Source: Trypanosoma brucei (Eukaryota). From it: a stretch of 64,000 nt of DNA. How positions within the stretch are numbered: the stretch's first letter is position 1; each line of letters opens with the position of its first letter. The notes under the pieces were generated by a model. It did no database searches and was not told the origin of the DNA. It worked only from the letters and a program-made list of their open reading frames with translations. Made by a program: the position numbers and the translations under genes. The stretch is from assembly GCA_000002445.1 (NCBI GenBank), contig CH464491.1, positions 3,136,001 through 3,200,000 on the forward strand, written 5' to 3'. Below, in pieces: positions 13,174-47,808 of the stretch.

Positions 13174-13177
13174 AGTT

Positions 13178-13400
13178 GAGTGGAACAAGAATCGGAAAGA
13201 AGGAGATATGGGGTTTGGTAAAGGAGATGATGGTGTAAGGAATGNNNNNNNNNNNNNNNNNNNNNNNNNNNNNNNNNNNNNNNNNNNNNNNNNNNNNNNN
13301 NNNNNNNNNNNNNNNNNNNNNNNNNNNNNNNNNNNNNNNNNNNNGGAAGAAGAGATTGGGGTTTGGTTAAAGGAGATGATGTGTTGTTAAGGGAATGGCA
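13178..13400. repeat. Tandem repeat of an about 50-bp unit (ggaaRgaaggagatWtggggtttggt(t)aaaggagatgatg(g)tgtKtaagg(g)aatg). At least 2 copies spanning the N gap.
   Basis: One unit ends at 13244 and a second starts at 13345, with 100 N between them. Copy 1 and copy 2 have a single unit at the equivalent site (about 2526-2580). Confidence 0.7.
13245..13344. other. Assembly gap (100 N). Also a single ambiguous base at 13628.
   Basis: Run of exactly 100 n characters. Confidence 1.
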
Positions 13401-29537: not shown

Positions 29538-29930
29538 ATGTTCAACCAGTTTTCGAAGATGCCCTTGGAGCCTCCATACATTCGCAACGTATACATCGCG
29601 AGCCTTCCGCCCAACTACACCGAAGAAGAGCTCCGAGCGTTGTTTGCGCCGTTTGGTAAGATCGTCTCAACAGCGCTTGTACGGGATAAGGAGACAAAAC
29701 GCTGCAAGGGGTATGGGTTTGTGCTGATGGAGAGATACCAGGACGCATACAATGCTGTCATGGCTCTTCAGGGTCACACCGTTCAACACGCCCGTGTGCA
29801 AGTGCGATTGGCGCGCCCCGAAGCATCTGTGAAGAAGGCCGATCCGCTCTTGTACACTCAAGCGATGATGTGCGAGGTTGTGCAACCTGCGGTGTATGTT
29901 CTGTACCCACCGACGTGTATTACTGCTTAA
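29538..29930 (+). CDS. Single-RRM RNA-binding protein, 130 aa.
   Basis: RNP2 VYIASL and RNP1 KGYGFVLM. Paralog of the RRM in 35698-36351 (shared ...GYGFVL..., VQVRLA+PEASV). Confidence 0.7.
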   Translation: MFNQFSKMPLEPPYIRNVYIASLPPNYTEEELRALFAPFGKIVSTALVRDKETKRCKGYGFVLMERYQDAYNAVMALQGHTVQHARVQVRLARPEASVKKADPLLYTQAMMCEVVQPAVYVLYPPTCITA

Positions 29931-31377
29931 GCAGAGGGTGCGGAAAGTGGTTCCAGACGCCACAAATAAATAAGTATATTTAAATGTTAGTATATTGCAT
30001 TTTTTTTTTTACTTTCTGTTTTTTTTTTTCGTATGCTCTTGTGGGTGGCTCAGCATGTGTATGAAGTTCCGTCGTGCGCTAACATTGATTGGCTACCCAC
30101 CTCTATGCTTAAAGGACAACAATTAACCAAACGTTACAAGCAACTTTTTTTTTTATTATTATTATTTTAAATAACTTATATGAAACAACTTTTTTTAAAA
30201 AATGAGCTTATTCATCATTTGAGGTCACCCTCTTTCAACTCCTTAAAAAAAAAGATTATGAACCGCTGGGTTGTGCGGGGTGAAAAATAAACGACACCAT
30301 GAGCTGCAGAAGTACTAAGAAGAAAAGACACTAAGAGGTGTCAAGGTGGTGCACCGGTCACGAACTCGAATGAGGGCGAAGGTTGCACTCCAACATACTC
30401 TTGCACGCTACTGCTACGTTGGTGGTGCGGTTCTAATCTTCCAGAAAGATTACATCTTGTATATATATATATATATATATATTACTATTGTTGTTTCAAA
30501 CTGATGCAATCGTTACTTCTACTATCTTAATGCTTCCCTCTGAAGTGATCGGGAAGACCACGTGTACTCTGTTACCTTGAAGGTAGACCGGAAAGAAAAA
30601 GAAATTCAAAAAACAAATATGAAACGGATGGAGTATGGATGAGAGATAAAATCTGGGGAAAATGAAAAAAAAACACATAAAAAACCAGCGGAAGGGAATG
30701 GGAAGTGGGAAAAGTTATTATGGTAAGGAGTGAAATAGATTAAAGGGGGGGAAATAAATGAGTAACTGACCGTGGTAGGGGAGAAGGGTCGAAATGTGTT
30801 CGCATGTGAAAAAAGGGCATGTCAATGTCTTTTGGCATTCCCTTCCATTGTTATAAAAGAAATCGAGGGGGGGAAGGGGTTAAAAGGGGGGAGAAATTCA
30901 ACTGAAAAAAGAAATAATGATAGGTAAGTGTAAGCATTTAACAAGTACCATGGCATCAACCACTTTACTAGAGGAGAGCCTTCGTGGGTTTGTCGAACCA
31001 ATGAAAGTTGTAGTATGTGGGACCAAACAAGAGTAGAGGAAAGGGGGGGGGATGAAGAATGGTACACATAACTAGGAGGCTTTACGTACACATAAACCAA
31101 CAGTGAGTGAGTGCTTTTTATGTTACTACTTATCACTTTAGGAGGGAAATATTTTTCAAAGAGGAAAAGTTTCCAAGGGGTGGTGCGCTCCACGTACAAC
31201 CCCACAGTTTACTTGCTCCATAACTGCTTGCGGTTCCACTGCTTCGTGTGACCACTATTTTCATCTCTCGTACTTTTCTCTCTTGATGTTTACTCGCATA
31301 TCCATCTTTACCATTGGTGTGCTTGTTTGCGGGTGAGTGTGTGCTGAAAGGGAGGTGTCCAGCAACCATATAGGAAG

Positions 31378-34300
31378 ATGGGCCCCAACAGACAAAGGAA
31401 ACCAAGAGAACTGGCGCGTGGTAGAGGTCGTGGTGGTAGATGCGGCCGTGGGCGGGCTGCTGCACCGGCACCTACAGCACCGTCATCTATCCTCTCGCGT
31501 GCCGAGAAGGACATGGTAATTGACGTTCTCCACCACGCTGCCAGCGGAGGGGCAGTTCCGGTATCTGAGGAACACTTTAATCCGAACTCAGGCTCACGCA
31601 TCAAGTTTCAGCGCAATAGTCCGTTAACACCTTCGGAGATCCTTCAGCGATTATATGAAGGCCTTGGTTTCCCACCCGATCTGGTCACACAATATGTGAG
31701 AGATCTAGCGGACGAATCAAAATTACCGGTCTTTAACTCCATCGGAGAACTCCTCGCAGAGGGCGGACCTTTCCAATCATTTTTGGTTGATAGTTGCTTC
31801 GAACTGTTTTCCTACATGCTGTGGTATTCACGTGAGGAAGAGGGCACGAGCTTAACCCCTGAGGAGGGAGACTCCATACTTCAGGAGGAGTTGGAAGCAG
31901 TGCGAGCCCTCTTTGATGATAGTTTCATCGGTTTGAAGAACTTTGGCGATGACGATACGGACGACAGGGAACTCCAGTTCTCCTTCTTCACACAAGACGA
32001 CAAGGGAGTGATGCTTTCTATTCGCATTCCGGACCACTACCCCTCGGATCCCCCTAACATATTTATTGGCCCGCGCAAGCAGCAGACAGGAGGAATGTCC
32101 ACCTTAGCTGTTTTACCGCTTGATACAAAGGAACTTCCAGCCGTGGCAAGACGATCAATACTGGATGCTGCTGTTGAAGCGATTAACGGATTCGTGGGCG
32201 AGGGTTGTTTAATTGGGTTGCTTTCTTCAATTTGTGGCGCAATTTCTTCTGTTAGTGGACTGGGAGTAGTAGAACAACTTCCTACTCCCGCACCGTGTGA
32301 GAGTAAGGAGGTAAAGGCTGTAATAGCCGCAAAGCGCCAGGCGTTCGCGTCTGCGCTGTCCGCTTCTGAGGATCCGTTGGCGTTACCCCCTGAGGAACCA
32401 AGCTCGACGACGTGCTCACTACCAGCGAAGGTAGAGCTTGGTACTGTCGATCACAGCGATGACGAGGTCGGTCAAGTCCGACGGGAATTTCTCCGTAACA
32501 ACAAACAGTTGGATGCGAAGCTCAAGGAGGAGTGGCAGGCTCTCAGAGCTAACGGTACCCTGAGAAACTCGCGGGAGCAGCTTCCCGCCTACAATGCACG
32601 TGAGGAGCTTCGCCAGGCCGTGGCAAGGCACCGCGTCGTTGTTGTAAGTGGTGAAACGGGTAGCGGTAAGACCACTCAAATACCGCAATATCTGTATGAG
32701 TTTATGTGTGAAGATGGGAAGGGGAGCTCTGCCAACATTGTGTGTACGCAACCACGGAGACTTGCGGCAACTTCCGTAGCACTTCGGGTTGCTGGAGAAC
32801 GCGACGAAGCCGTAGGCGGTGTGGTTGGTTACACTATCCGTCTGGAAAACTGTGTGTCCAGTCGCACTCAAATTACTTATTGCACCACCGGTGTTGTGCT
32901 TCGGCGAATACAGGTGGATAAATTTTTGGGTAGGGTCAGCCACATCGTTGTGGACGAGATTCATGAGCGTGGTGTGGACACCGATGTCCTCCTTATTCTC
33001 CTCCGTGACCTTCTCGAGCGCCGTGATGATTTGACTGTCGTACTCATGAGTGCGACAATGGATTCTGAGTTGTTTGCACGTTACTTTGGTGGGTCTCCTA
33101 TCATTAACATTGCTGGTCGCACATTTCCCGTCCAGGTATTCCATCTAGAAGAGATTATCCCAATGGTAAACTACAGTCTGGATGATGGTTCACCGTATGC
33201 CAAGTGGGAGGTACGAAAGGAAGAGAGGCGACGGAATACGCGGAAGCAAATGTTGGACATTGACATCAATGAGATTGAAGAGGCGCGGGAACTCACCGCA
33301 GGAGTCCATGGACCGTCAACACAACTAAGCGCATCACACAGGACGTTGGATATCCTATCCCGGATGAATCCAGACGTCATCAACTACGAACTGATTGAAT
33401 CCATTGTTGTGTACATCGATACCAAGATGGGTGTGCCAGGCGCCATTCTGATTTTTCTTCCTGGCATGGTGGAGATGACTTCGTGCATGGAGCAACTAAA
33501 GTCTAACCCGAAGCTCCTCAGTAGTTGCCTCATCTACAACCTCCATAGTTCTCTTGGGTCGGCCGAGCAACAGGGCGTATTTCAGCATCCACCCAAAGGC
33601 AAGAGAAAGGTGGTCATCGGAACCAACATCATGGAGACGTCCATCACCATTGATGATGCGGTGTTCGTCATCGATTGCGGGAAGGTGAAGGAGAACCGCT
33701 ATGACGCACGGAGAAGTTTATCACAACTGGTTACTGTGAACACATCCAAAGCTAACTGCCGTCAGCGGCAAGGGCGAGCTGGTCGAGTACGTGAGGGTTT
33801 CTGCTTTCGTTTGTTTACCAGCACCCAGTTCGAGTCACTCGACGACCATCAGCTTTGTGAGATGCATCGTGTTCCCCTCGAGAGTCTTGTTCTTCAAATA
33901 TATTCCCTTAATCTCGGTGATGAAGTAGAGTATCTTCGGAAAGCTCTGTCACCGCCAGATGAGCGGGCTGTGCGAAGCAGCGTCAAAGCCCTAACAACAC
34001 TTGGTGCACTGACTATGGACAAGCGTCTTACATCGCTTGGGCGGCACTTGGCCAACCTCCCGCTGGATGTTCGTATTGGTAAGATGGTCATACACGGTGC
34101 AATTCTTCAGTGTGTGGACCCAGTACTGACGATCGCCGCATGCCTTGCTGTGCGTACCCCATTCCTTTCGGCGATGGACTATCAAGTGGAGGTGGAGGGT
34201 GTGCGGAGAGCGCTCTCTGGGGATTACATGTCAGACCATTTATCTTCGTGGTTTGCTTATTCTAAGTGGATCGCGATGTGGCACAAGGAGGGCCCTGCTG

Positions 34301-35277
34301 GAGCGAGTAAGTTGTGTGCAAAGTACTATTTGTCTCTGCCAGCACTGCGGCAAATCCAAGCCACAAAGCAGCAGTATGAGCGATTTCTCTACGAGGCTGG
34401 GCTTATTGAGGAAACACCTGTTCGTATGAAGAACAACCGGTTCCTCTATGACCCAGTTGTCACTCTTGAAGACAGTGTGTACGAGTCGGGTGGACCCCGT
34501 TTCAACACCAACTCTGGTAGTGTGAAGTGCATTCTTTCGTGCATCGTCGCCGGCCTCTATCCGAATGTGGCGTGTGTGAAGACAGTGCGAGGTGGAAAGG
34601 GAGGCAACCGTACTAACATCACGACCCTGGACGGGTCGGAAGTTCTTGTTCACCCCTCCAGCGTTGCTGGAAAGGAAAAGGCGTTCGCCTCTCCACTTCT
34701 TGTTTATGTGGATAAGGTGAAAACTTCAGCCACCTTTCTGCGTGAAGTTTCAATGGTGACGCCGCTTCATGTCGTGTTCTTTGGGAGCGGCCGCCTCGAG
34801 TATCTTCCGAAATATGGGGAACTTGTCGTGGACGAGGCAACTGCTTTCAGATGTCAAAGCGAGGATGCTGTATTGTTACGGCACCTAAAGGATCAGTTGG
34901 ATTCAGCCCTTAGCCAAAAGATCAACGACCCGTCTAAGAGTTGGGAATCTACCAGCAGCGTTGTCGTTCGCGCTATTCTCAGGCTTCTGAAAGGTGACTC
35001 GAGCACTGTCCGTGGTTTAACAGTTGTCGACAGGCGCCAGCCACGCGCACCGCTGACTGCCCCGCTGCTGCAGGTCGAGTCAAGCGACGACGCACCAAAA
35101 AAGAAGGACGGCAGCGCCGACAAGAGGACATGTTTTGTGTGTGGTGAGGGCGGTCACGTGGTTAATACCTGCCCACATAAAGCAGCAGCAGCGAAGGGAG
35201 GACCCGTGACGCGCTGCTTCATTTGTGGGGAATGGCACCACCCGACAGATTGCGCAGTAACGACCCCCATGCGTTGA
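31378..35277 (+). CDS. DEAH/RHA-family ATP-dependent RNA helicase, 1299 aa, with N-terminal RWD domain and two C-terminal CCHC zinc knuckles.
   Basis: Helicase motifs GETGSGKT (I), DEIH (II), SAT (III), TNIMETSITI (V), QRQGRAGR (VI), plus HA2/OB-like C-terminal region. RWD-like block with the IRIPDHYPSDPP (YP..PP) motif. Knuckles CFVCGEGGHVVNTC and CFICGEWHHPTDC. Arg/Gly-rich N-terminus. Confidence 0.85.
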   Translation: MGPNRQRKPRELARGRGRGGRCGRGRAAAPAPTAPSSILSRAEKDMVIDVLHHAASGGAVPVSEEHFNPNSGSRIKFQRNSPLTPSEILQRLYEGLGFPPDLVTQYVRDLADESKLPVFNSIGELLAEGGPFQSFLVDSCFELFSYMLWYSREEEGTSLTPEEGDSILQEELEAVRALFDDSFIGLKNFGDDDTDDRELQFSFFTQDDKGVMLSIRIPDHYPSDPPNIFIGPRKQQTGGMSTLAVLPLDTKELPAVARRSILDAAVEAINGFVGEGCLIGLLSSICGAISSVSGLGVVEQLPTPAPCESKEVKAVIAAKRQAFASALSASEDPLALPPEEPSSTTCSLPAKVELGTVDHSDDEVGQVRREFLRNNKQLDAKLKEEWQALRANGTLRNSREQLPAYNAREELRQAVARHRVVVVSGETGSGKTTQIPQYLYEFMCEDGKGSSANIVCTQPRRLAATSVALRVAGERDEAVGGVVGYTIRLENCVSSRTQITYCTTGVVLRRIQVDKFLGRVSHIVVDEIHERGVDTDVLLILLRDLLERRDDLTVVLMSATMDSELFARYFGGSPIINIAGRTFPVQVFHLEEIIPMVNYSLDDGSPYAKWEVRKEERRRNTRKQMLDIDINEIEEARELTAGVHGPSTQLSASHRTLDILSRMNPDVINYELIESIVVYIDTKMGVPGAILIFLPGMVEMTSCMEQLKSNPKLLSSCLIYNLHSSLGSAEQQGVFQHPPKGKRKVVIGTNIMETSITIDDAVFVIDCGKVKENRYDARRSLSQLVTVNTSKANCRQRQGRAGRVREGFCFRLFTSTQFESLDDHQLCEMHRVPLESLVLQIYSLNLGDEVEYLRKALSPPDERAVRSSVKALTTLGALTMDKRLTSLGRHLANLPLDVRIGKMVIHGAILQCVDPVLTIAACLAVRTPFLSAMDYQVEVEGVRRALSGDYMSDHLSSWFAYSKWIAMWHKEGPAGASKLCAKYYLSLPALRQIQATKQQYERFLYEAGLIEETPVRMKNNRFLYDPVVTLEDSVYESGGPRFNTNSGSVKCILSCIVAGLYPNVACVKTVRGGKGGNRTNITTLDGSEVLVHPSSVAGKEKAFASPLLVYVDKVKTSATFLREVSMVTPLHVVFFGSGRLEYLPKYGELVVDEATAFRCQSEDAVLLRHLKDQLDSALSQKINDPSKSWESTSSVVVRAILRLLKGDSSTVRGLTVVDRRQPRAPLTAPLLQVESSDDAPKKKDGSADKRTCFVCGEGGHVVNTCPHKAAAAKGGPVTRCFICGEWHHPTDCAVTTPMR

Positions 35278-35697
35278 GAACCCCCGGATGGTTCACTCAT
35301 ACGTGAGGTTCCCCCCTTTTTTCTACTGTTATTTCCCCATCGAGGGGGATGGGGACAGTCATACTTGCATGTGGCTGATGGATGGAGTAGTGAAAACATA
35401 ATTATCTCTACCGCCTTTTTCATGAATTTTTTTTTCTACTCGTTCTCATCTGCGTCTACCTTTTCTTTTTTCGGTATTATATTTCCATTTTTTTTTATTT
35501 GTTCGCCGTTTAGGGTATAAAGCAAAGACGTCTTGGAAGAGATCGTGATTTTCCTGCCTTATTCGTACCATTACTGCACAAAGGGAGAGGAAACGGAACT
35601 CAAGTGACGGCTTTACACGATATCTCAAGTGTTCAAAAAGAAAGAAAGAGAAGAAGGTGAGCGCAGAAGCGAGCGGTCAAATTCACAGGTTAACACA

Positions 35698-36351
35698 ATG
35701 GCAGCTGTCACCCAGCAGGGGAATGACACCCGGAAGCTGCGATGCAATGTTTACGTAGCCAGCCTTCCATTAGATTTTGACGACGACCAACTCTTTGACC
35801 TTTTCTCCCCGTACGGCCGCATAAGCTCTGCGCGGATTATGCGATCGAAAGGAGCGCGACAATCCAGAGGCTACGGCTTTGTGTTATTTAGGCACGCCTC
35901 CTCCGCTGAAAAGGCGATTGACTCGTTGGTGGGTTACGTCATTGGTGGAAGCCGTATTCAAGTTCGACTGGCCCATCCGGAGGCCTCCGTTGCGTACAGC
36001 GGGCAGCGTGGATCCCGCAGTGGAAACTCAACGCCTGGTGCCCTTCCTGAAAAGACGTTACCGGCGGCCTCAGGAGTAATTACTCCACCACCACCGTCAT
36101 CTGCAATTATTTCGCACCCCAATGATTCTGGTATGATGGTTCAAACATACCCCATTACGACGATGTACCCAACTATGTACCCATCTGTCGTTCCGCAGAT
36201 AATCGCTCAACCTCAAGCACCCGTACCGGCTGCTATGCAGCAAGTTGTGTTTCTCCCGCAATACGCACAACAGTCAAACCAATCAACACCACCGACATTT
36301 TATATGATGGTACCAGACGCCATGCAGGCCGTTCCTCCTACGCTGTCGTAA
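35698..36351 (+). CDS. Single-RRM RNA-binding protein (about 217 aa from Met MAAVTQQ) with Q/P/M-rich C-terminal low-complexity tail.
   Basis: RNP2 VYVASL and RNP1 RGYGFVLF. Paralog of 29538-29930. C-terminus PQAPVPAAMQQVVFLPQYAQQ. Followed by a 9.7-kb ORF-free tract. Confidence 0.7.
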   Translation: MAAVTQQGNDTRKLRCNVYVASLPLDFDDDQLFDLFSPYGRISSARIMRSKGARQSRGYGFVLFRHASSAEKAIDSLVGYVIGGSRIQVRLAHPEASVAYSGQRGSRSGNSTPGALPEKTLPAASGVITPPPPSSAIISHPNDSGMMVQTYPITTMYPTMYPSVVPQIIAQPQAPVPAAMQQVVFLPQYAQQSNQSTPPTFYMMVPDAMQAVPPTLS

Positions 36352-39300
36352 AGGGAGGACTATCTGAAGTAGAAGGTCCCCTCCGTGTTATTACAATCGG
36401 GAATATCTCCACTTTCTTTCTTTCCTCTTTTTTCTTGCTTATTTTACTTCTTTTACCTTCCACCCATCTTTCCATTCACACCATTTTTTTTTTCCGCGCA
36501 TTTTTCTTTCTTCCTTCTCCTTGATTTTTTTTTTGTTGCTCTCCGTCTCTCAGGCAGAGTCTGGTGTAATCGGACCAATTTACGGTTAAAATCAGCCGAT
36601 GGGCGAGATGAAACACTTATGAACGACGTATGTTTATGTTCCTATATGAATTAATATATGCACATTTGCATTATTAAATTTCTTCTCTCCCGCACGCAGG
36701 CACGCACACACGTTGGGATGTGCATGTAGTTGTGAGGATGGTTCTTCCAAACCTTTAGGAACTGAGGGAGGGGGGAAATGATGCATTTTCTAAATATAAT
36801 TATGGGGATACATCCATACGATGTGACACGAGTGAAGAAGCAAAAGAGAGAGAGGGGGGAGGAAGGAAAAGAAAAAGAGAGAAAAGGAAACAAGAGGACA
36901 TACTCACACACATGCAAAACAACAACAACCACATTAAAAAAAAAAAGAAACGGTCATTCCGCCGTGTTTTTTTTTCTTTTCGCTTTTGTTGTGCGGCTGT
37001 TTCCAACAACTCCCTTCTGCTCCTCCTCCTCCTCCTCTAATTCCCTTTCTTTCCTTCCCCTCTTTCTTTTCCCTCTACTCCTCTTTCTTCTTGTTTTTGT
37101 TTCTATTTTGTTTCCATTTTTTTTTTCCTTTTTATGACTCATGCATATGTGTGATGAAAAAGAGGGGAAAGATATTAAATGATATATAATATATAATACT
37201 TTTGACGGAAGAGAAAAAGAAAGAACAACAACCTGTTGCACAAAGTGGCAACTTCTATTAATAAATAACAGCAAACCATTTAAGGAAGAGAGATGAAGTA
37301 AAAGCAAAGTAATAACAGTATAATAATATTGCTTTGAAACAAAGGAAGAAGGAAAGGAAGCAGAAACAACAAAGAGGGATTTGAGAATTGAGAAATACAG
37401 GTAACACTACTAGTGTTACTATTTTGTGATTACATGGCATATTTATTATATCTTTGCACATATCAGCAGCAGGCCACCTGCCTGTCTTTTTTTTTCTTTT
37501 TCTTTTTTCTTTTTTTTTGCTGCTGTCGTTGCTCTTTTTTTTTTCCCCCACTCCTCTTTTCTTTTTGTTTATATTATAATTTATTTATTTTTATACGCTC
37601 CGTTTCCTCTTTTTTATTGTCTGTTTTTTAAGAAAAAAAAATATAATGGAGTTAAATAAAGAAAGAGGAATGAAAGTGTTTGAGAAAATAAGGAACACGC
37701 GGATTTGGAGGAAATGAATGGATGAATGGAAAAAGGAGGAAAAGGAAAAAAAGGCAGGAAAAAACTGTCGCGTGAGTGTTAATTTTTTTTATTAAAAAAA
37801 AAAAGCAATCAAATAAATTAACAAAACTAAAAAAATTGTGTAATTGAGAGAAAAAGTATAAACAGATCCGTAATACCTGAAACTATCAATGGCGATAACC
37901 AAAAAACAACTTTTAAAAGGTCTCTCTTTTTCTTTTCTTCTTCTTCTTTTTTCTTTCTTTTTTTTTAAAAAAAAGGAGAGGAAAATAAGTGAAGTTAAAG
38001 GAGAGGAAAATAAGGAGAAGGAGAAGGAGGAGAGGAGGATGGGAGAAGGAGGAGGAAAAAAAAAAAAAAGAGACAGGAAGACGGGTTAAACAGTGGAAGA
38101 ATGGAAAAGGTTGTTTTTTTTTTTTTACTTTTTGCATAAATCGTGCCGATAATTAATTAATTTTTTTTTTCGTTTTAAAAAGAAAAAAAAATCAAACGCG
38201 GTGAATAAATGGGGATAGACGCAGAAAAAGTAAAAGTAAAAGATATAAATGACGTGTGTGCGTGTGTGTATGTGTGTATGAGGAAAGTAACAAGAAGTGG
38301 CAGGCAAAATTGTAAACAAATAAATAATTATAAATAAACGGAAAGAAGAAAGATAATAAAGAGGGAAGTGGAAAGCTGTCAAATGCACTCCCTTTTTTTA
38401 TTTTTATTTTTCTTTTTCCTGTTTTGTTTTACATGTATGCGTGGAATGCTTACTTCGCGCGGATAACTCTTTTTATCCTATCTCTCTCTCTTTTTTCTCC
38501 GTTTTTTTTTTACCTCCTTTTTGATATTATCATTATTATTAATACTATGATGATTGTCGTGACTATAATGATTATTATTTTTATGATTTAATAGCCAGCG
38601 GTCCTCACACTAAAATATGCGAAAAAAAAAAGCGTTAATAAGTAAGGAGGTAAATAAAAATTGAAAAAAAAGAAACAGACGAAAATCATAAAATGAAGGT
38701 AACAAAAAAAAAATGTACGAGGGAATGCCAACAACATCAGCACACACGCGCAAACAAAAAAAAACAGTTGGGGATATGTTTGTTTGTTTGTGTATGTGTT
38801 TGTGTGTGGGGGGGGAGGGAAGGGGAGAAGCAAATAGCGATCCCATTGCAAGTATATGACATCACCCATTTTCCTATAATAATAATAATTATTATTATTT
38901 GTATTTGTGTTTGTGTTTGTGCTTTTGTTCATTCCCTCGTTTTCCTACTTGCGTTTGTTCCTGTTCTTGTTCTTGCTTTTTTTTTCTTTTCTCATCTTTT
39001 CTACCTCCTCCTCCTCCTCCTCATTATTATTATTATTATTACCGAATTCTCTCTTCATTTTGTATGCGTGTATGCGTATGTATGCATGCGCCTCTATTTT
39101 AATGTTTGTGTTGAATTCAAATGAATTCACCCATGCCGTATTTGTGCCCCACCCCTTTTTATGCCGTGTGCTTGTATGAGTTCGTATAATTTTTTTTGTT
39201 TACATCCATATAAATATAAATTATATTTATATTTATACGCTTGCATTATTCCCAAAAGAAAAAAAAATGCCGTATTTATTTATGATATTCGTTTAACAAT

Positions 39301-40771
39301 GTGCTTGATTGTTTCAATTTCTTTCTCTTACTTTCCTCTGTGTGTGTGTGTTTGTGTTTCTTCAACTTTCTGCTAGTGGCTTCGCTCCTTTATTTTCTTC
39401 CTTTTATTTTTCTTCTTTTTTTTTGTTTTGTTTTCACTTCCACTTTTTATTTCATTGAATGTGTCCCTTTTTTTGGCAGGTAACATATGGGAATATTTAT
39501 TGGGAAATAAGAGAAGAACAAAAAAGTGGTGTAGAAAACATTATTGAAACCAAAAGGAGAAATTTAAAGTAACGAAAAAGAAGGAACGTGGAAAGCGAGT
39601 TAAAGGTATCACTTTTTAAAAATTTTTTTTTAAAAAAAGAAGAGGGAAAATGAAACAAAATATAAAATAAATCAGGTAAACAACAACAACAACATCATCA
39701 TCAAAAAAAAAGCAACATTAAACAAAGAGGGAGATAAAGAAGGGGGAGAAAAGAGGAGGTTCAATGAAGAATTATGAGCATTTTTTCCTTTTTTTAAAAA
39801 AAAGACCTAAAATCTTCTTTAAAATTTTACTTTCATTCATTTTTTTTTACTTTTTTCTTTTCTAAATAGCAGTGTGGAAAAATCAGTGCACATATTTTTC
39901 GAATTGTTTCAAAGTGAAGACAGCAAAAAAAGAGAGAAAGGAAATATTCTAAAAAGAAGAGATAATAAGAAAAAAATGAAAAAAGGAAGGATATAGTGCC
40001 TGATGTGCTCACCGAAATCGACCAAGTAATAATAATAATAATGAAAATAATCCGAATATGAAGATGACATATTAAATATTAAATATTAAAAAAAAATATA
40101 TATATATATCTTTACAGTGACTATTCCTCTTTTCCCCCTCCCTTCTTACTACTTCGAAACAACAACAACAACAACAAAGAAAAACACTCTGTGGAAACAG
40201 GAAGAAGAAAAAAAGAAACACACGTACTGCAACACATGGAAATGTTCAGAAGAACAAATCATATAAACATATATTTATTTATTTAAAATATTGTTAGTAA
40301 CATGAGCGTAAACACACAAGCGAATGGTTAAAAGGCAATGATGATAACACAGTAGGAAATGAAGCAAATGTGTAGGCGTACCCATGCTATAAAGAGGGAA
40401 AGTAAAAGTGATGATTTTGCTCTTTTGTCTTTTGTCTTTTGTCTTTTTTGTTTTCTTTTTGTCTTTTTTGTTTTGTGAGTGTGTGTGTTGTTAAACAAAT
40501 TATAAAATAAAGCAGATGCGGCGAAAAAAAAAATGGGAAGAATGAAAGAAAGGAATATATATATATATATATATATTTATGTTTATTTATGTTTATGCTC
40601 ATACATCTGAGAACGGGTGGAAAAGGGATTACAAATGGTGGCATCGAGTATTTTTCAAAGCAGGAGGCAAATTGCGGGAAGAAGAAGGGATATGAGGGGG
40701 TGGGTTTGCGGAGAAATTTGTGTGTATATATGTGCTAAAAAAGACAAAAACAAGAACAAAAAACTGCAAAT

Positions 40772-40822
<51 letters not shown>

Positions 40823-43800
40823 TTATTTATTTATATCTATGTTTCAATATTTTCGCATATTTATATGTGACCTTGATCTCTCTGAGTTTATTCTGTGTAT
40901 ACAATTAGCATATGTATATTATATGTTAGTTTGCTGGCTTAACTCGCTTCGTTTATATTTGTAACTTTCCTCTTTTGTTTGTTTGTTTGTTGCGGAAGGG
41001 AATTTGACTGGACGTGTCCGTCTTTTTGTTTTTGTTTGCAACTGTTCTTTTTTGTGTGTTTCTTATTTAATTACTTTTTGACTGTGTATTTGTGTGGATA
41101 TTTATACGCAAATATCTATATCTATATATATGTATTTATATACATATGAACTTATATGAGTATAAATATAAATTTGAATGAGAATGAATAGACACGAAAA
41201 GAGCCATTATGTTGAAGTAAGTAAGCCGAACCCAGATGAAATTATATAGGGTGAGAAGGGTTGGAAATAATAATAATAATAATAATAATATATATATATA
41301 TATATATAATCATGGATGTGAGCTCAGTGTTGTTGTTGTTATAATGATTATTTTCTTTTGCCCTCATGCAAATGCTGACGGACTCGAACACGTGGGGACC
41401 ACCACATCGTCTTACTTTCCCTTCCTCTTTTTTTTTTGTTTTCTCCTTCTTATATGTTTTTTTGTTTTAATTCTAATTGGCTCGTTGCGTTTTGTTTGGT
41501 TGAGCTATTTTCGACACGAACCCGCTATGGTAGTTTTTTTTTGTTACTCTGTTTCTGCCTACTTGGTTACGTTAACTTTTTTCTTTTTTCTTTTTTCTTT
41601 TTTTCCATTTGTTTCTTCGCATGGAGGTGAGTATTCATGAAAAGTGATGGAGAGTAATTTAGAGGAAGCGAAGGGGAAGAAAAGAGCGGAGGGGGAAAAA
41701 AAAAAGGATTGTTTTGGGAGAGAAAGGGGAGAAATAAAAAAAGTTGTTGCTGTTGTTATTGTTATTAAAAAAAAAAACAAAAACAAGAGAGGTTTTAATT
41801 AGAGCGAGGAAAGAGAAAGGTGAAGGAAAGAAGGAAAGGGGGGAGGGAAAAAGTTTGTATTGGCGGTGGGATTTGAGGTGCAACGGATCCGAAATCACGG
41901 AACAATTACATTTAATCTCATTTCTCTGCGGTCATGTTGAGCCGTAAGGAACCCTCGCATACGGGAACCTTCACCATTTTCTTTTTATATTTTTCTCTTT
42001 CTTTTTTTTCTTTTTTCTTTTTTTTTTAAAAAAACATGGAGATGACATTGGATAACAAAACAAATACGCCCATATTTAAATATTTACATATTTATGCAAC
42101 TGTTAATTCATTAAAAGGTGGAGGGGAGGGAATGAACAGAACCAACAATGATGGGGGAAGGGGTTTAACAATGAATAAGTGAAACAGTGGATCAAGTGAA
42201 AATTATTGTATTTATGTTTTATATTAATATAAATACAAATTTAAACGAATTTGAATAAATAACTGAATTTAAGCAATATAATAAATCTATATACGGACAT
42301 GTAGAGTTGCACTTTTTTTTTTTAATTTGAAAGGTTATGAAATTAAAAACAGTTGCGACTGCTTCAGCAAATGAGGAATGTTTCCGTTTCTAAGTGTCAA
42401 TGTCCGTGTGAGTGGCTGAGAGGACGAAAAATATGAATAATATGACAAAAATAGAAGAAGCACAATCGAAGAGACAAACAGAAAAAAAGAAGCATAACGA
42501 AGAATATATAAGCCACGTAAAATATTTAAATGAAATAAAACAAAATGAGGAAGCACTATATTGGACACACAATGAGAAACAGCGGAAGTAATGACAAAAT
42601 TCACTCTTCCCCTCCTTTTATTATTATTATTGTTATTGTTATTATCTTAGTTTCCTCCCTTTTTTTTTTAACATTTGTGACGTGGCGTTTCTTTATTTAC
42701 GTTTTTGGTGGGTTCGTTACCACCGCTCTTCTCGGTGCATGTGTATATGTATATGCTTGCTCACTTTTTTCCCTTGTTTTTTAATATTAATCATATTATT
42801 ATTATTACAATCATATCCCTTGGTTCCATCTACAACCTTTCGTGGGGCAGATATTTATGTCCCCTATATTCCTTTCTCTTTTAAAAAAAAATCTTTATTT
42901 ATTTGATCTGGTTCTTTTTTCCTCTTTATATATATATATATATATTAACGAAACTACTTTTGTTTTTTTAAATTTTTTTACTATTACGGCACAAGCGAGT
43001 GAATCCTCACCCAAAACGGCGGGGAAGGAGCATCAACTTGTGAGGTTCCTCATGAAAAATATAAATATTGCATGCGGATACCAAACTTGCCGATGCTTAC
43101 ACGCATTAAAAAAGAAGGTTTCGTTTTGTATTTTTGAAAAAAAAAACAAAGAAGGAAAAGGAAAGATACATATATATATAAATATGAATGCAAAGAGAAA
43201 ATTAATAGACAAGGAGAGGGGCGTAACTCGAGCTTCCTTCAAGTGTTTTTCCTTTTCATTTTATCAATATTATTTTATTTATCTTTTCTCGGTGTTGTTC
43301 TTCTTTTATCTTTTCTTCTATCCTTTTCACGTGACACTATTTCCTTTGGTTGAAACTAACGAATAATATACGCCTGTGCATAAGCGATGGTGAGTGACTA
43401 AATGAATAAATAAATAAATGCTCTTTTGAATAAATGGAGGGAATATTTAAGACTCAGAAACGTAAGTTACGAGGAGGAAGGAGGAAAAAGGGACGAGAGG
43501 TGTCTTTCCTTCTTTATTTTTGCCTTTTATTGTGTGCACTTTTGCTACTCCTCGTTGCCGCATTTCCGTTCTTCCGTAACGGGGGGGGGGAAAAAAAAAG
43601 GAATTGTGCGTTTGGTAAAGAAATGAAGGTATAGAAGCGGCTTCCGCTTGTCCCCGCATGTCCTCGTGCATGTTTAAAGCCGCGCTCTTCCCTCCATTCG
43701 TGCTGATGAGTATTTGTTCATAAATATGAGAGGAAATATATATATATATATATTTATAGGTATATATTTACTTGACTTCTCTTTTCCTCTTTTTTTAATT

Positions 43801-46044
43801 ATTGTAAACTTTTATATTTATGTACATGCACATTAAGAGCGCACCCTAATGTCGTATTGCGGTGATGATTCACCGTTGTTACCCATCATCATGGCCAAAG
43901 TAATAATTATATATATATATATTATTGCATTCTCATTATGGTGCCCTTTTTCTTCCCTTTCCCTTTCTACTTACCTTCTTTGTTATCATAATTATTAAAA
44001 CTGTACGTACTTTACCTCAATTAAGCAATAATGGTAACCGAAAGTAGAAGAAGAAAAGGAAAAAAAAGGATGCGGAAGGATAATTACGCACAACACTTTA
44101 ATTATTATTATTATTATTACATTATTATTACTATTATTATTGTTTGTTCCTTTGTGTACTTCCTTGCCACTTATACGCGTACCTTTCATTGCTTTGGCAC
44201 TGATCATATGAATTAAATTTAAGGATTTTAATTATGGTGATGATTGTTGTTATTAAAAAAAAACAATAATAACTATTATTTTATATTGTGCCTTTACTCG
44301 TTGCAACCATCATACCCTCGTGGATTGCATTGTTTCGTTGGCGTGGAGGTAACAAACCACATAAACGAGCCAAATGACTGCACATATAGCGGAAGGAAAT
44401 AAAACAAAGGAGAAAGTAAAGCAAATTAAAAAAAAGAGGGAGCGAGAAGGATTTAAAAGAAACATTTTTTTTTCTTAAAGATGAGTCGACTTCTACCATT
44501 CGTGTTTATCGATCCATATTTGTATATGTTTATTTATTTATTTGTATATACGAAAAGAAGATAAGGAATGGGGGAAAAGAGGCATGAAGAAGTGAGAAGA
44601 GGATGAGGAAGAGAAGGAAATAAAAGAAAAGAAAAGAAAAAAAAAGCGATAGAAAACAGAAAGAAAAAGGAAAAAGAAAAAAAAATGAAGAAAAGAGAAC
44701 AAGGTGCTGGTGTGCCGCGTACTTGAAATTCACACTGTTCCCGTTCTTTCACATCGAAGTTGGGAAACCAATAAAACAAGAGGTATAAATCATATCATAA
44801 TTATTACTGTTTGGAGATGACTTTCTTTTCTTTTCTTTTTGTTTTTCTCTTTTTTTTTTTTTTACCCCTCTCCCATTCAGCTTTTCTTTTGTGTACCTTT
44901 TCTTTACAGCACTCTGTGTTTCAACCGACCGGATAATGGAGACCAGCAAAAACAACCACAAAATGCGAGTAAAACCAGAGCAGCAAGAAAAGAAGCGAAA
45001 AAGACAGCGCCCATTTATGGGTTTATTTACTTTAAAATTAAAATATATATATATATATATATTATACTCACATATTTGTGTGGTGACGAAGGTAAGGAAA
45101 GGGGAAATTATTGCAAGTTGTTTATATGAAACTGGCAAACAAAAACTCTTTTTCTATCTTTTTTTTTTAAAAAAAAGAAAAAGAGAAGAGGGGAGAGGAG
45201 AGGAGAGGAGGATTTCAAAAAAAAAAAAGAAGCAAGTGCGTGTGCGCACGGATGGCTGGACGGACTTTAACACATGGTGCAACACGATTTGATTTTCAGT
45301 TTGCTTTTCATTTTCTTCGATCCGACAGATAACTGCTCCGTGGGAATGACTTGCTCTCTTTTTTTTTTTAATTATTATTATAATTATTATGATTTCGTTT
45401 CGTAAATGATTTCCACTTTCCCAGTCCCTGCTGCACTTCATATCCGCGCAACATTTTCTTTGTTTTGTTTTGCTTATTCTTACCCTTCTTGTTATCTTTG
45501 TTTTTTTTAAAATTATTGCTTATTTATATTAGTTTCTATAGGGAATAGTCATATAATTTAGTTGTTTGAGACTGTGAGTCACAAGGCAGCGCCGCTTGAA
45601 CTTTCCAGCATATTGAGATGAGGAACCTGCAGACCCACACATGAAAGGGGTAATATGATTCTTTTTTTAAAAAAAAATATATAAATATATTCTGCTTTTC
45701 ATCCAAGAATAATAATAATGAAAAAGAAAGGTGCAATCCTTTTTGTTTTCAAGGAAAGGTCAGTCAATTTTTCCTCTCTTTCTTTTTCGGTTTCTTCGTG
45801 TGCCTGTTTGTTTTTTATATTGTTGTTTTCACACCAGTTAACAAGGGCTTTGTGCTCCGCAAAGTTAGCATCATAAAGTAAGGCGATAGAATACAAAAGA
45901 AAAAAAAGCTCCATCAAGAAAAGAGCGGGAGGAAAAAAAAAGAAAAATTATACACCGAAGATATATAGAAAGGGGCCATAAGCCTCGCATATAGCAACAA
46001 ACAAGGAGGACAGACAAAAGGAAAAAAAAAGGGAGGACCAGGAT
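36352..46044. repeat. About 9.7-kb ORF-free low-complexity tract. Alternating polypyrimidine and polypurine blocks with (TA)n, (ATT)n, (CCT)n and (CTTTTGT)n microsatellites and homopolymer runs.
   Basis: All ORFs in this interval on the track are translations of simple repeats (poly-F/L/K/S). Strand composition flips every 100-400 bp. Located between two plus-strand genes. Confidence 0.85.
40775..40818. repeat. (AT)22 microsatellite.
   Basis: Direct inspection. Confidence 0.95.
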
Positions 46045-47808
46045 ATGGCGTTTCTCGTACAAGTAGCAGCGGATATATTCAATAATAAAGTGAACTTTGA
46101 GCTTAGCTTCCCGTCCAGACCCAGCATATCGGAACTGACGCGTTCGGCGGAAACTGCTTTCTCAAATGAAATTTCTCTTCGCCGACCGGACAATGTGCCA
46201 TCGCACAAATTTCATTCATCGAAGATCAAAATGTACGATGAGGAGCTCAACAAATGGGTGGATCTAATAAGGGAGGACCAGTTAACGGATTATTGTCAGC
46301 TTTATGTTTTCCAACCTCCAAATGAATGGCACAAGGAAAGCCAAAAGGAAATCCCCCCTGCAATGAAGCCACCGAGTTCCGGCCAACGACACTCCGCAGG
46401 TGGTTCCTTTTCACAGGGCTCACGTGTCACTCCTAATGGAAGCCTTTCCATGCAGGGGGCTCTCGCACCGTACAACGGGTCTCGCTCACCCGTTAGCCAC
46501 CGCAGTGAGTCGCAACAGGCTCGTCACGCTTCGTTCCACGGGAGTACCTCAAATGCGCTCGTGCCGCGTGCCCAGACAGATGTGTCGCAAGAAGAAAAAC
46601 TGCGTGTGCTATTCGCGGAACTCGATGTAAAGGGTAACCGTGTGCTCGACGTTGAGGACTTCCGACACGGTTTCACTGTGTTTAATCTCAACTTCAGCCC
46701 AGCTACGGTGGACGATCTCTTTGAAAAGGGTGACAGCAACCGGGACGGGCGGATTACCTTTTCAGAATTTGAGCGGTTCGGACGGCTCTATCCAATCATG
46801 ACGGATTGCCTCTATTTCCGTTCCAGGGCTTTTTGGGAAGAAGAACAAATCAGGCGCTCTATTCAAAATGAGCGACAGGCAGTGAGACAAGCGGAGCAAG
46901 CGGTGGAGCAGGCCCGACGAGCCCTTGAGGAGGCAGAAAATGAGACAGATGCCGCTAAGGATGCCGTCGCAACTGCGGATGCGGATCTCAAGGATCGAAC
47001 GGACCGTCTGCGGGACCTCACGAGGGACATGGACAACGCAAAGCGCGAGAAGGAGCGGGCCATCCGCGAGAAGAAGGATCGCGAGAAGGAACTCTTCGAG
47101 ATTCGTGAGCGTGAAAAGGAGCTTCGGAAAGACGCACAAGAGGTGGCTCGTGAGGCTGAGAAGCAGGACCGACGGGCGTTTTCTCTCGCTGGGGAAGCGA
47201 GTGCTGCCGATGACAAGGTTCGTGCCTTGGAGAAGGCCCTTGACGAGGCTCGTCGTGCCGCTGAGCGGGCGCACAACGCCGCAGATCAGGCTGCCAGAGA
47301 CGCTGATATCGTGAAACTCCGCATGCAAGATGCTACACGAGATGCCGAGGAGGTGGCACGGGAGGTTCCCCGGGCGGAGGACGCGGTGCGGGCCGCAGAG
47401 CACAACGTATCAGCAGCAGATCAAGGGGCTCGGGAACTGGAAGGAATGGGCCGTGTGCTTTCGCGGGAGATAGAAGAGGCTGGGCAGCGACGGGATCAGA
47501 GCGAAAAGGCAGTTGAGGAGGCGAGAGGTATGATGCATGTGAAAGAGCGTCAGTTGGAGGAAGCAAAACAGCACGTTTCGGAGAGGGAACACGCCGTAAG
47601 GCTTAAGGAAATCGAACTGGCTGATCAGCTGAAGCAGCGTGAACTCGTGTCACAGCACGAGAGGACACTTATAGAGCAGGAGCTTCGGCTACGCGAACAA
47701 AGAGACAGTTTAGAGGAGCGGGAGACGAAATTGATGTCAGAAGCCAGCAGCTTCCTGGGCAATCTCCGTACGCAGTTACACGGTGGGAGGTCCTATCCGC
47801 GAGATTAA
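46045..47808 (+). CDS. EF-hand calcium-binding protein with long Ala/Arg/Glu/Asp-rich coiled coil, 587 aa.
   Basis: Two EF-hand-like loops (DVKGNRVLDVEDF, DSNRDGRITFSEFE) followed by about 300 aa of EAxRxAExA-type charged heptads. Confidence 0.6.
   Translation: MAFLVQVAADIFNNKVNFELSFPSRPSISELTRSAETAFSNEISLRRPDNVPSHKFHSSKIKMYDEELNKWVDLIREDQLTDYCQLYVFQPPNEWHKESQKEIPPAMKPPSSGQRHSAGGSFSQGSRVTPNGSLSMQGALAPYNGSRSPVSHRSESQQARHASFHGSTSNALVPRAQTDVSQEEKLRVLFAELDVKGNRVLDVEDFRHGFTVFNLNFSPATVDDLFEKGDSNRDGRITFSEFERFGRLYPIMTDCLYFRSRAFWEEEQIRRSIQNERQAVRQAEQAVEQARRALEEAENETDAAKDAVATADADLKDRTDRLRDLTRDMDNAKREKERAIREKKDREKELFEIREREKELRKDAQEVAREAEKQDRRAFSLAGEASAADDKVRALEKALDEARRAAERAHNAADQAARDADIVKLRMQDATRDAEEVAREVPRAEDAVRAAEHNVSAADQGARELEGMGRVLSREIEEAGQRRDQSEKAVEEARGMMHVKERQLEEAKQHVSEREHAVRLKEIELADQLKQRELVSQHERTLIEQELRLREQRDSLEERETKLMSEASSFLGNLRTQLHGGRSYPRD

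What the first reader, a model, noticed from the sequence alone, without database searches (positions are those of the whole stretch)
29538..36351. Two paralogous single-RRM genes bracketing a DEAH helicase
ORFs 29538-29930 and 35698-36351 share the same RRM (RNP1 KGYGFVL, identical VQVRLA+PEASV tail) but have different C-termini: none in the first, a Q/P-rich tail in the second. They flank the 1299-aa DEAH helicase. This arrangement suggests a local duplication of an RBP gene with subsequent divergence. Only the downstream paralog has acquired the giant low-complexity downstream region.
Basis: seen in the sequence. Interest (0 to 1): 0.5.

Follow-up and report, generated by a model that had tools for sequence, protein, structure and literature searches.

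The report
Ancient RBP5/RBP9 paralogs flanking a helicase
The two small RNA-binding-protein genes are the already studied Trypanosoma brucei genes RBP5 and RBP9, paralogs that duplicated before trypanosomes and Leishmania split, and the helicase between them looks like a bystander in a block of conserved gene order.

Summary
ORFs 29538-29930 and 35698-36351 each encode one RRM and flank a 1299-aa RWD + DEAH/RHA helicase. They are 45% identical over 82 ungapped residues.

These are known genes on T. brucei chromosome 11: RBP5 (Tb927.11.12100), helicase Tb927.11.12110 and RBP9 (Tb927.11.12120). Published ORF lengths, cloning primers, restriction sites and the F61 mutant position all match.

They are each other's best match among about 720 sampled RRM domains and the PDB. 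They share RNP2 and beta4 signatures found in none of those controls. The exclusive clade has only 19% bootstrap support, and other kinetoplastid single-RRM proteins could not be sampled.

The duplication is ancient, not recent. Each gene has its own orthologue, in the same order, in T. vivax, T. cruzi and Leishmania. In Phytomonas and Angomonas the RBP5-like gene lies elsewhere, so the bracket is not obligatory.

One detail appears new. RBP5 is not tail-less: both families end in a shared hydrophobic motif (P-x-Y-V-M-x-x-P) in a predicted disordered tail, and they differ mainly in linker length.

The long region downstream of RBP9 is also long in T. vivax and T. cruzi.

Overall this is ordinary and largely already known.

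The parts
29538..29930 (+). RBP5 (Tb927.11.12100) coding sequence, 130 aa, single RRM
   Evidence: The ORF is and Pfam RRM_1 matches at 1.7e-18. It is 100% identical to P0001. The 393-bp length and the cloning primers CAGCATGTTCAACCAGTT / TTAAGCAGTAATACACGT from PMC4055773 Tables S2 and S6 match the sequence. F61 lies in RNP1, as in PMC8259959.
29583..29831 (+). RBP5 RRM plus beta4 extension (residues 16-98), the part homologous to RBP9
   Evidence: The BLASTP alignment is. The AF2 model has pLDDT above 90 over roughly residues 11-99, with strands and helices in RRM order.
29886..29909 (+). RBP5 C-terminal hydrophobic motif PAVYVLYP (residues 117-124)
   Evidence: A regex matches within the last 30 aa in 15/19 RBP5-family proteins and 0/150 controls. 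The region has pLDDT below 50, so it is predicted disordered.
29931..31377 (+). RBP5 downstream region. It contains the RBP5 3'UTR (about 1.29 kb according to PMC8259959) and the published AU-rich instability element between SwaI (29978-29985) and BstEII (30223-30229).
   Evidence: The sequence was read. The two sites lie about 240 nt apart, matching the 236/246 nt stated in PMC4705827. The UTR length comes from PMC8259959.
31378..35277 (+). Tb927.11.12110, a 1299-aa RWD + DEAH/RHA helicase (motif II DEIH) with HA2 and OB domains and a C-terminal CCHC-like knuckle
   Evidence: Pfam domains are. The best solved relatives are DHX29 (1.7e-158) and DHX36 (3.6e-157). The 3900-bp length matches PMC4055773 Table S2. 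It is 61% identical over its full length to the syntenic Leishmania gene.
35698..36351 (+). RBP9 (Tb927.11.12120) coding sequence, 217 aa, single RRM plus a P/Q/S-rich tail
   Evidence: The ORF is and Pfam RRM_1 matches at 2.7e-18. The 654-bp length and the primers CACAATGGCAGCTGTCAC / TTACGACAGCGTAGGAGG match. The exact protein is found in T. b. gambiense chromosome 11.
35743..35991 (+). RBP9 RRM plus beta4 extension (residues 16-98)
   Evidence: The BLASTP alignment is. The AF2 model is confident over roughly residues 15-99.
36289..36315 (+). RBP9 C-terminal hydrophobic motif PPTFYMMVP (residues 198-206)
   Evidence: The regex matches in 13/18 RBP9-family proteins within the last 30 aa, and in 0.4% of shuffled tails. 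An HMM trained only on RBP5 tails places its best hit on this motif in 16/18 RBP9-family tails.
36352..46044 (+). A 9.7-kb AT-rich (about 32% G+C) region between RBP9 and BILBO1 with no credible gene. It is presumed to be the RBP9 3'UTR plus intergenic sequence.
   Evidence: Composition is. Only microsatellite-type repeats were found and there are no Rfam matches. The only annotated ORFs are low-complexity translations with no counterpart in T. vivax or T. cruzi. The extent of the 3'UTR was not measured here.

Best explanation
The locus is the T. brucei chromosome 11 segment GPI12 (PIG-L), Nth, RBP5, helicase Tb927.11.12110, RBP9, BILBO1.

RBP5 and RBP9 are ancient paralogs of a kinetoplastid-specific single-RRM family. 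The duplication predates the split of Trypanosoma and Leishmania. Both proteins keep the same plan:
- an RRM with the unusual RNP2 context NVY(I/V)ASLP;
- a beta4 extension (V/I)QVRLA-x-PEAS;
- a disordered linker;
- a terminal hydrophobic motif P-x-Y-V-M-x-x-P.

The linker is about 18 aa in RBP5 and about 100 aa, rich in P/Q/S, in RBP9.

Because trypanosome genes are transcribed polycistronically, the two copies are regulated separately through their own 3'UTRs. According to the literature, RBP5 has a roughly 1.3-kb UTR that confers iron responsiveness and carries an AU-rich instability element. RBP9 is a bloodstream-form-enriched repressor and is followed by a very long AT-rich region.

The helicase between them is a neighbour kept by the general conservation of gene order, not a functional partner.

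Shown here: gene identity, homology, ancient age and synteny. Taken from the literature: the functions. Inferred: separate regulation through the UTRs as the reason both copies persist, and any role for the C-terminal motif.
For: Identity:
- ORF lengths of 393, 3900 and 654 bp, and 1764 bp for BILBO1, match PMC4055773 Table S2, as do the cloning primers.
- SwaI and BstEII sites in the RBP5 3'UTR match PMC4705827.
- F61 lies in RNP1 and the RRM spans residues 16-86, as in PMC8259959.
- Proteins 100% identical to ORF1 (T. equiperdum, P0001) and ORF2 (T. brucei equiperdum, P0018) exist, and ORF2's exact sequence is in T. b. gambiense.

Homology:
- The two proteins are 45% identical, ungapped, E 3e-21.
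- The RBP5-family HMM scores RBP9-family members at 78-93 bits, against 66.6 for the best of about 720 other RRM domains. The RBP9-family HMM scores RBP5-family members at 80-98 bits, against 78.8.
- phmmer gives 69.5 bits between the two. The best single-domain PDB chains reach about 55 bits and T. cruzi UBP1 reaches 51-52.
- Three signatures are present in both families and absent from the controls.
- The shared C-terminal motif is supported.

Age and synteny:
- Each gene has separate orthologues across Trypanosoma and Leishmaniinae.
- The gene order is identical in L. utingensis, T. cruzi, T. vivax and T. b. gambiense.
- The helicase is orthologous, at 61% identity to the Leishmania gene.

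Distinct biology, from the literature:
- RBP5 is iron-responsive through its 3'UTR, and the protein half-life is 13.6 min.
- RBP9 mRNA is 7-10 times higher in bloodstream forms, and the protein represses strongly when tethered.
Against: - The exclusive RBP5 + RBP9 clade is recovered by neighbour-joining but with only 19% bootstrap support.
- Other kinetoplastid single-RRM proteins (RBP3, RBP4, RBP6, RBP7, RBP10 and so on) could not be sampled, apart from TcUBP1 in the PDB. The large search was swamped by multi-RRM proteins and the word-indexed search returned few sequences.
- The margin in the RBP9-HMM direction is small: 80.0 versus 78.8 bits.
- The C-terminal motif scores are weak individually. 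They range from -4 to 11.5 bits, while the 99th percentile of shuffles is 5.2. The regex was written after seeing both families.
- No data here bear on whether the helicase interacts with either RBP.
Confidence: 0.85

Rival explanations
1. This is a recent, lineage-specific local duplication of an RBP gene in this genome, with rapid divergence and later gain of the tail and long UTR by the downstream copy.
For: The genes lie 6 kb apart on the same strand and share an RRM.
Against: The two proteins are only 45% identical. Each copy has its own orthologue at 56-74% (RBP5) or 44-65% (RBP9) identity in other Trypanosoma species and Leishmaniinae. The same arrangement occurs in T. vivax, T. cruzi and Leishmania. 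The long downstream region is also present in T. vivax (8.2 kb) and T. cruzi (4.3 kb).
Confidence: 0.02
2. The two RRMs are not specific paralogs. Their similarity is the generic similarity of ELAV/RBMS-like RRMs, and their proximity is coincidence.
For: - RNP1 [KR]GYGFV is common, with 72 occurrences in the controls.
- An ARP-type beta4 extension occurs in Hu/Sxl-like RRMs, with 11 control occurrences, and PDB matches extend to residues 96-100.
- Bootstrap support for the joint clade is 19%.
- One control domain (P0075) scores 78.8 bits against the RBP9 HMM.
Against: - Every member of each family outranks every control in both directions.
- The alignment is ungapped over 83 residues in all 34 sequences.
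- NVY[IVA]ASLP and QVR[LFMRW]A are absent from about 720 control domains.
- A second, independent shared element exists at the C-terminus.
- Adjacency is conserved across genera.
Confidence: 0.07
3. The RBP, helicase, RBP trio is a functional module. The flanking RNA-binding proteins would act with the DEAH helicase, for example by loading it on target mRNAs, and the bracket would be kept by selection.
For: The order short RRM, helicase, long RRM is conserved from T. brucei to Leishmania. All three products are RNA-related.
Against: - The conserved block extends well beyond the trio (PEX11, PIG-L, Nth upstream; BILBO1 downstream), as expected from the general synteny of trypanosomatid polycistronic units.
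- In Phytomonas EM1 and Angomonas deanei the RBP5-like gene lies in another context with no helicase nearby.
- By established knowledge, neighbours in trypanosome polycistrons are not generally co-functional.
- RBP5 and RBP9 have different published regulation.
- No paper in the library mentions the helicase gene ID.
Confidence: 0.06

Closest known systems
T. brucei RBP5 (Tb927.11.12100), an iron-responsive single-RRM protein (PMC8259959; PMC4705827)
   Same: ORF1 is this gene. It has the same length, the same primers, the same F61 position in RNP1, the same restriction sites in the 3'UTR and the same neighbours.
   Different: Nothing differs. The RBP5 paper read here (PMC8259959) contains no mention of RBP9.
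T. brucei RBP9 (Tb927.11.12120), a bloodstream-form-enriched repressor (PMC5413900; PMC8312216; PMC4055773)
   Same: ORF2 is this gene. It has the same length, primers and gene order, and the exact protein occurs in T. b. gambiense chromosome 11.
   Different: Nothing differs. Orthologues in T. cruzi, T. theileri, T. conorhini and Leishmania are labelled 'RNA-binding protein 5(-like)' in public records, so the names are muddled across species.
ELAV/Hu, Sex-lethal and RBMS (MSSP) RRM1 domains
   Same: These are the best solved-structure matches for both proteins. They share the KGYGFV-type RNP1 and an A-R-P extension after beta4.
   Different: Those proteins have two or three RRMs. RBP5 and RBP9 have one RRM, a different RNP2 context (NVYxASLP) and a kinetoplastid-specific tail. 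Single-domain PDB scores are at most about 55 bits, against 69.5 bits between RBP5 and RBP9.
DHX36 / DHX29 / DHX57-type DEAH/RHA helicases
   Same: The helicase core, HA2 and OB domains match DHX29 (1.7e-158) and DHX36 (3.6e-157). It also has an N-terminal RWD domain.
   Different: Its specific function in trypanosomes is unknown. No paper in the searched library mentions Tb927.11.12110.

Membership tests
RRM (Pfam PF00076) proteins | The Pfam RRM_1 score is above the gathering threshold | tested here: met
   ORF1 scores 66.6 bits and ORF2 66.1 bits, against a cut-off of 20.7.
RRM (Pfam PF00076) proteins | A beta-alpha-beta-beta-alpha-beta fold with RNP2 on beta1 and RNP1 on beta3 | tested here: met
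   The AF2 models give E17-21, H29-39, E42-49, E56-64, H67-76, E88-91 for RBP5 and the same order for RBP9, with pLDDT around 90 or higher. RNP1 is K/RGYGFVL at residues 57-63 and RNP2 is NVYI/VASL at residues 17-23.
T. brucei RBP5 = Tb927.11.12100 | Published ORF length, primers, mutated residue and 3'UTR landmarks | tested here: met
   The 393-bp length and primers match. F61 is in RNP1. SwaI is at 29978 and BstEII at 30223.
T. brucei RBP9 = Tb927.11.12120 | Published ORF length, primers and position between Tb927.11.12110 and BILBO1 | tested here: met
   The ORF at 46045-47808 has BILBO1_N and EF-hand domains.
RBP5/RBP9 paralog pair (one kinetoplastid RRM subfamily) | The two are reciprocal closest relatives among RRM domains | tested here: inconclusive
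   They are reciprocal best matches against about 720 control domains and the PDB. Bootstrap support is only 19%, and other kinetoplastid single-RRM RBPs were not sampled.
RBP5/RBP9 paralog pair (one kinetoplastid RRM subfamily) | Shared derived characters outside the generic RRM consensus | tested here: met
   NVY[IVA]ASLP, QVR[LFMRW]A and A[RHN][PA][EDG]A[SC] occur 0 times in the controls. A C-terminal motif is shared.
Recent tandem duplicates | High identity and restriction to one lineage | tested here: not met
   Identity is 45%. Both copies have syntenic orthologues in T. vivax, T. cruzi and Leishmania.
DEAH/RHA helicases (DHX36/DHX29-like) | A helicase core with DExH motif II, plus HA2 (winged-helix and ratchet) and OB domains | tested here: met
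   Pfam finds DEAD, Helicase_C, HA2_N, HA2_C and OB_NTP_bind. DEIH appears in the translation. PDB matches have E values around 1e-157.
Functional gene cluster (RBP, helicase, RBP module) | Linkage is kept wherever the genes occur, and there is evidence of joint function | tested here: not met
   Linkage is broken in Phytomonas and Angomonas for the RBP5-like gene. Joint function cannot be tested with these tools.

The most novel reading that the evidence does not exclude
The hydrophobic motif P-x(0-2)-[YFVLIMC]5-6-[P/Q] is conserved at the C-terminus of both RBP5 and RBP9 families, from Trypanosoma to Leishmania, inside a predicted disordered tail. It could be a previously undescribed short linear effector motif of this kinetoplastid RBP family. 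One possibility is a docking site for the repression or decay machinery, which would fit RBP9's strong repression when tethered. Another is a degron, which would fit RBP5's 13.6-min proteasome-dependent half-life. Under this reading the two paralogs would share one output mechanism and differ in when they are expressed.
Probability: 0.3. Interest if true: 0.4.

Novelty: already known. Interest (0 to 1): 0.15.

Why it matters
Both genes and their neighbours are annotated and experimentally studied, so the finding mostly re-discovers known biology.

The analysis adds modest value in three ways. First, it shows that RBP5 (iron response) and RBP9 (bloodstream-form repressor) are ancient sister genes with the same domain plan, a link absent from the RBP5 paper checked here. 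Second, it points to a conserved C-terminal motif that could be tested as the shared effector or degron. Third, it flags a naming muddle, since RBP9 orthologues are labelled RBP5 in other species, which can mislead cross-species comparisons.

Tried and rejected
- **Profile search of 1.84 billion representatives with the joint RRM alignment.** The top 150 were all multi-RRM proteins ranked by summed score. It did not return the nearest single-RRM relatives. I used the hits only as a pool of about 720 control domains.
- **Word-indexed profile search.** It returned only 23 proteins and no other kinetoplastid RBP families.
- **Neighbour-joining with bootstrap.** The first run was spoiled by two spurious fragments. 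The cleaned run recovers the joint clade at only 19% support.
- **AF2 of RBP5 and RBP9.** I was testing whether the C-terminal motif docks on the RRM. It does not: the RBP5 tail has pLDDT below 50 and the RBP9 tail averages about 40-61. An intramolecular extra strand is therefore not supported.
- **HMM trained on RBP5 tails only.** Its best hits fall in the right place in 16/18 RBP9-family tails, but the scores overlap those of shuffles.
- **Rfam scan of the whole window.** It gave no matches.
- **Tandem repeat scan of the 9.7-kb region.** It found only microsatellites.
- **blastn of the 9.7-kb region against the T. vivax and T. cruzi counterparts.** Only low-complexity matches appeared, so no conserved element was found.
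- **Literature gaps.** De Gaudenzi 2005 (PMC1317496) and Wippel 2018 (PMC6161725) are not held. I could not check whether the paralogy was stated there.
- **Third ancient paralog, considered and rejected.** The RBP5-like genes of Phytomonas and Angomonas are no closer to each other than species divergence predicts. No third member appeared in Trypanosoma or Leishmania. Relocation is therefore more likely.
Full report
**Observation**

The window carries ORF 29538-29930 (130 aa) and an ORF ending at 36351 whose ATG at 35698 gives 217 aa. Between them lies ORF 31378-35277 (1299 aa), and all three are on the + strand.

Pfam finds one RRM_1 domain in each small protein (E 1.7e-18 and 2.7e-18). In the large one it finds RWD, DEAD, Helicase_C, HA2_N/HA2_C and OB_NTP_bind. 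The helicase's motif II reads DEIH. Its best solved relatives are DHX29 and DHX36, with E values around 1e-157.

BLASTP of the two small proteins gives 37/82 identities (45%), no gaps, E 3e-21. The core observation is therefore correct.

Three details need correcting:
- RNP1 is KGYGFVL in one protein and RGYGFVL in the other.
- The tail matches at 10 of 12 positions, not all.
- The first protein does have a C-terminal tail, of 32 residues.

**Identity**

These are known genes of Trypanosoma brucei chromosome 11.
- Proteins 100% identical to both ORFs are deposited for T. equiperdum (ORF1) and T. brucei equiperdum (ORF2). The exact ORF2 protein lies on T. b. gambiense chromosome 11.
- The window is 97.6% identical to that gambiense record.
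- Table S2 of PMC4055773 lists, in order: Tb927.11.12080 (759 bp), 12090 (780), 12100 (393), 12110 (3900), 12120 (654), 12130 (510), 12140 (357) and 12150 (1764). These match the window's ORFs.
- Table S6 gives cloning primers for RBP5 (Tb927.11.12100) and RBP9 (Tb927.11.12120). They match the ends of ORF1 and ORF2 exactly.
- PMC8259959 places the RBP5 RRM at residues 16-86 and mutates F61 in RNP1. F61 is the phenylalanine of KGYGF in ORF1.
- PMC4705827 describes an AU-rich instability element between unique SwaI and BstEII sites within the first 318 nt of the RBP5 3'UTR. SwaI is at 29978 and BstEII at 30223, flanking U-rich runs.
- The flanking ORFs are PIG-L (GPI12), an HhH-GPD glycosylase (Nth) and, downstream, a BILBO1_N + EF-hand protein.

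**Are the two RRMs specifically related?**

I built separate HMMs for the RRM plus extension of each family, using 8 orthologues each. I scored them against all proteins fetched, including about 720 RRM domains from the 150 best hits of a profile search of 1.84 billion proteins.
- With the RBP5 HMM, every RBP9-family member (77.7-93.0 bits) outranks every other domain (best 66.6).
- With the RBP9 HMM, every RBP5-family member (80.0-97.7 bits) outranks every other domain (best 78.8).
- Direct phmmer between RBP5 and RBP9 gives 69.5 bits. The best single-domain PDB chains reach about 55 bits (ELAV, RBMS2), and the trypanosome single-RRM protein TcUBP1 reaches 51-52.
- All 34 family sequences align without a gap over 83 residues.
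- The patterns NVY[IVA]ASLP, QVR[LFMRW]A and A[RHN][PA][EDG]A[SC] occur in none of the control proteins.

A neighbour-joining tree recovers RBP5 + RBP9 + one environmental RBP9-like sequence as a clade, but with only 19% bootstrap. The families themselves get 98% and 77%. Other kinetoplastid single-RRM proteins could not be sampled. The paralogy is therefore well supported by several independent characters, but it is not proven by a supported tree.

**A second shared element**

RBP5 orthologues end in, for example, QPAVYVLYPP (T. brucei), SPTYVLLVPQP (T. cruzi) and QPVYVMYVPSP (Leishmania). RBP9 orthologues end in PPTFYMMVPD (T. brucei), QPTFYMLLPD (T. cruzi) and QQPVYVVLLPNG (Leishmania).

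The pattern P-x(0-2)-[YFVLIMC]5-6-[PQ] gave these counts:

| Set | Result |
|---|---|
| RBP5-family proteins, last 30 residues | 15/19 |
| RBP9-family proteins, last 30 residues | 13/18 |
| Control proteins, last 30 residues | 0/150 |
| Control residues, anywhere | 1 match in 101,026 |
| Shuffled RBP9 tails, last 30 residues | 0.4% |

An HMM trained on RBP5 tails alone puts its best hit on this motif in 16 of 18 RBP9-family tails. The scores are weak, and 8 of 18 exceed the 95th percentile of shuffles.

AF2 models give confident RRMs and low-confidence tails with no docking of the motif. The motif therefore looks like a linear motif in a disordered tail. The two paralogs share the plan RRM, extension, linker and terminal motif, and the linker is about 80 residues longer and P/Q/S-rich in RBP9.

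**Age and synteny**

Each gene has its own orthologues in T. vivax, T. grayi, T. conorhini, T. melophagium or T. theileri, T. cruzi, Leishmania, Porcisia and further trypanosomatids.

The order PEX11, (gene), PIG-L, Nth, short RRM, helicase, long RRM is the same in T. vivax, T. cruzi and T. b. gambiense; L. utingensis matches from PEX11 to the long RRM but has no gene called between PEX11 and PIG-L. BILBO1 follows where the locus reaches far enough. The Leishmania helicase is 61% identical over its full length, and the T. cruzi long RRM gene is the RBP9 orthologue. The duplication therefore predates the Trypanosoma-Leishmania split.

The bracket is not universal. In Phytomonas EM1 and Angomonas deanei the RBP5-like gene lies between a PRPP synthetase gene and RPL37e, without a helicase. 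In Angomonas it is tandemly repeated. Pairwise identities fit species divergence rather than a third ancient paralog.

The conserved block extends well beyond the trio, and trypanosomatid polycistronic units are broadly syntenic (established knowledge). Conservation of the bracket alone therefore does not argue for a functional module.

**Downstream regions**

The RBP5 stop to the helicase ATG is 1447 bp, and the published RBP5 3'UTR is about 1.29 kb. The helicase stop to the RBP9 ATG is 420 bp.

The RBP9 stop to the BILBO1 ATG is 9693 bp at about 32% G+C. This interval contains only microsatellites, no Rfam match and no credible gene. The two annotated ORFs (42857-43366 and 44936-45292) are low-complexity translations. 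No counterpart is called in T. vivax or T. cruzi.

The same interval is 8.2 kb in T. vivax and 4.3 kb in T. cruzi, so a long region downstream of RBP9 is old. Its sequence is not conserved. How much of it is RBP9 3'UTR was not determined here.

**Function, from the literature**

RBP5 is cytosolic and is induced by iron starvation through its 3'UTR. It binds its own mRNA and PAP2 mRNA. The protein has a 13.6-min, proteasome-dependent half-life and is toxic when over-expressed through its RNA-binding activity.

RBP9 mRNA is 7-10 times more abundant in bloodstream forms. The protein represses strongly when tethered. It drives a bloodstream-like transcriptome when over-expressed in procyclics and prefers mRNAs with long coding regions. 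Its depletion has no growth effect in bloodstream forms.

The RBP5 paper does not mention RBP9, and the 2021 RBP9 paper does not mention RBP5.

**Verdict**

This is a real but ordinary feature. It consists of two known, ancient paralogous RBP genes kept in a conserved gene order, with an unrelated DEAH/RHA helicase between them.

The only element that may be new is the shared C-terminal motif. It is a testable lead for a common effector or degron function.

Noticed in passing
window 1-15000: A large repeated element is present at essentially 100% identity. Direct copies lie 5202 bp apart (1780-2079 = 6982-7281). Inverted copies include 7750-9670 versus 11302-13222, 2548-3904 versus 11866-13222, and 1005-1984 versus 13936-14915. 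Only short broken ORFs occur here, and GC skew changes sign near 10 kb. From memory, the 5.2-kb period recalls the ingi retroposon; this was not tested.
   Followed up: partly
L005 7849-10567 (Angomonas deanei) and L007 10001-10384 (Phytomonas EM1): The RBP5-like gene sits in a different context, between a PRPP synthetase gene and RPL37e, with no helicase or PIG-L/Nth nearby. In Angomonas it is present as three near-identical tandem copies.
   Followed up: partly
P0187 (Lygus hesperus) and P0190 (Bactrocera neohumeralis): Proteins deposited as insect 'CUGBP Elav-like family member 3' are 64-66% identical to T. brucei RBP5. Both carry the family RRM signatures, and P0190 also has the C-terminal motif (P0187 is truncated before it). 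They are probably from trypanosomatids contaminating the insect assemblies.
   Followed up: no
window 42857-43366 and 44936-45292: These ORFs have exactly the lengths of annotated Tb927.11.12130 (510 bp) and Tb927.11.12140 (357 bp). They translate to low-complexity sequence and have no called counterpart in T. vivax or T. cruzi, so they are probably not real genes.
   Followed up: partly
public records of RBP9 orthologues (P0020, P0022-P0024, P0031, P0034, P0035): Orthologues of T. brucei RBP9 are named 'RNA-binding protein 5' or '5-like' in T. cruzi, T. theileri, T. conorhini, Leishmania, Leptomonas and Novymonas. A T. cruzi paper speaks of 'RBP5A/B'. Names are not transferable between species.
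   Followed up: partly
window 29538-29561: The first seven codons of RBP5 (MFNQFSK) are shared only with T. vivax. Met8 aligns with the start Met of almost all other orthologues in the alignment, so the protein may start at 29559. Published numbering (F61) uses the longer form.
   Followed up: no
P0191 (JGI metagenome, 126 aa): An environmental protein is 51% identical to RBP9-family RRMs and 39% identical to RBP5-family RRMs. It has NVYVASLP and SKGYGFVLY. It may be an RBP9-type gene from outside the sampled trypanosomatids, which would push the duplication further back.
   Followed up: no
window 35205-35277: The helicase ends in one canonical CX2CX4HX4C zinc knuckle (CFVCGEGGHVVNTC) and a second degenerate one. 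Both are conserved in the Leishmania orthologue. Pfam did not report them at E <= 0.01.
   Followed up: no
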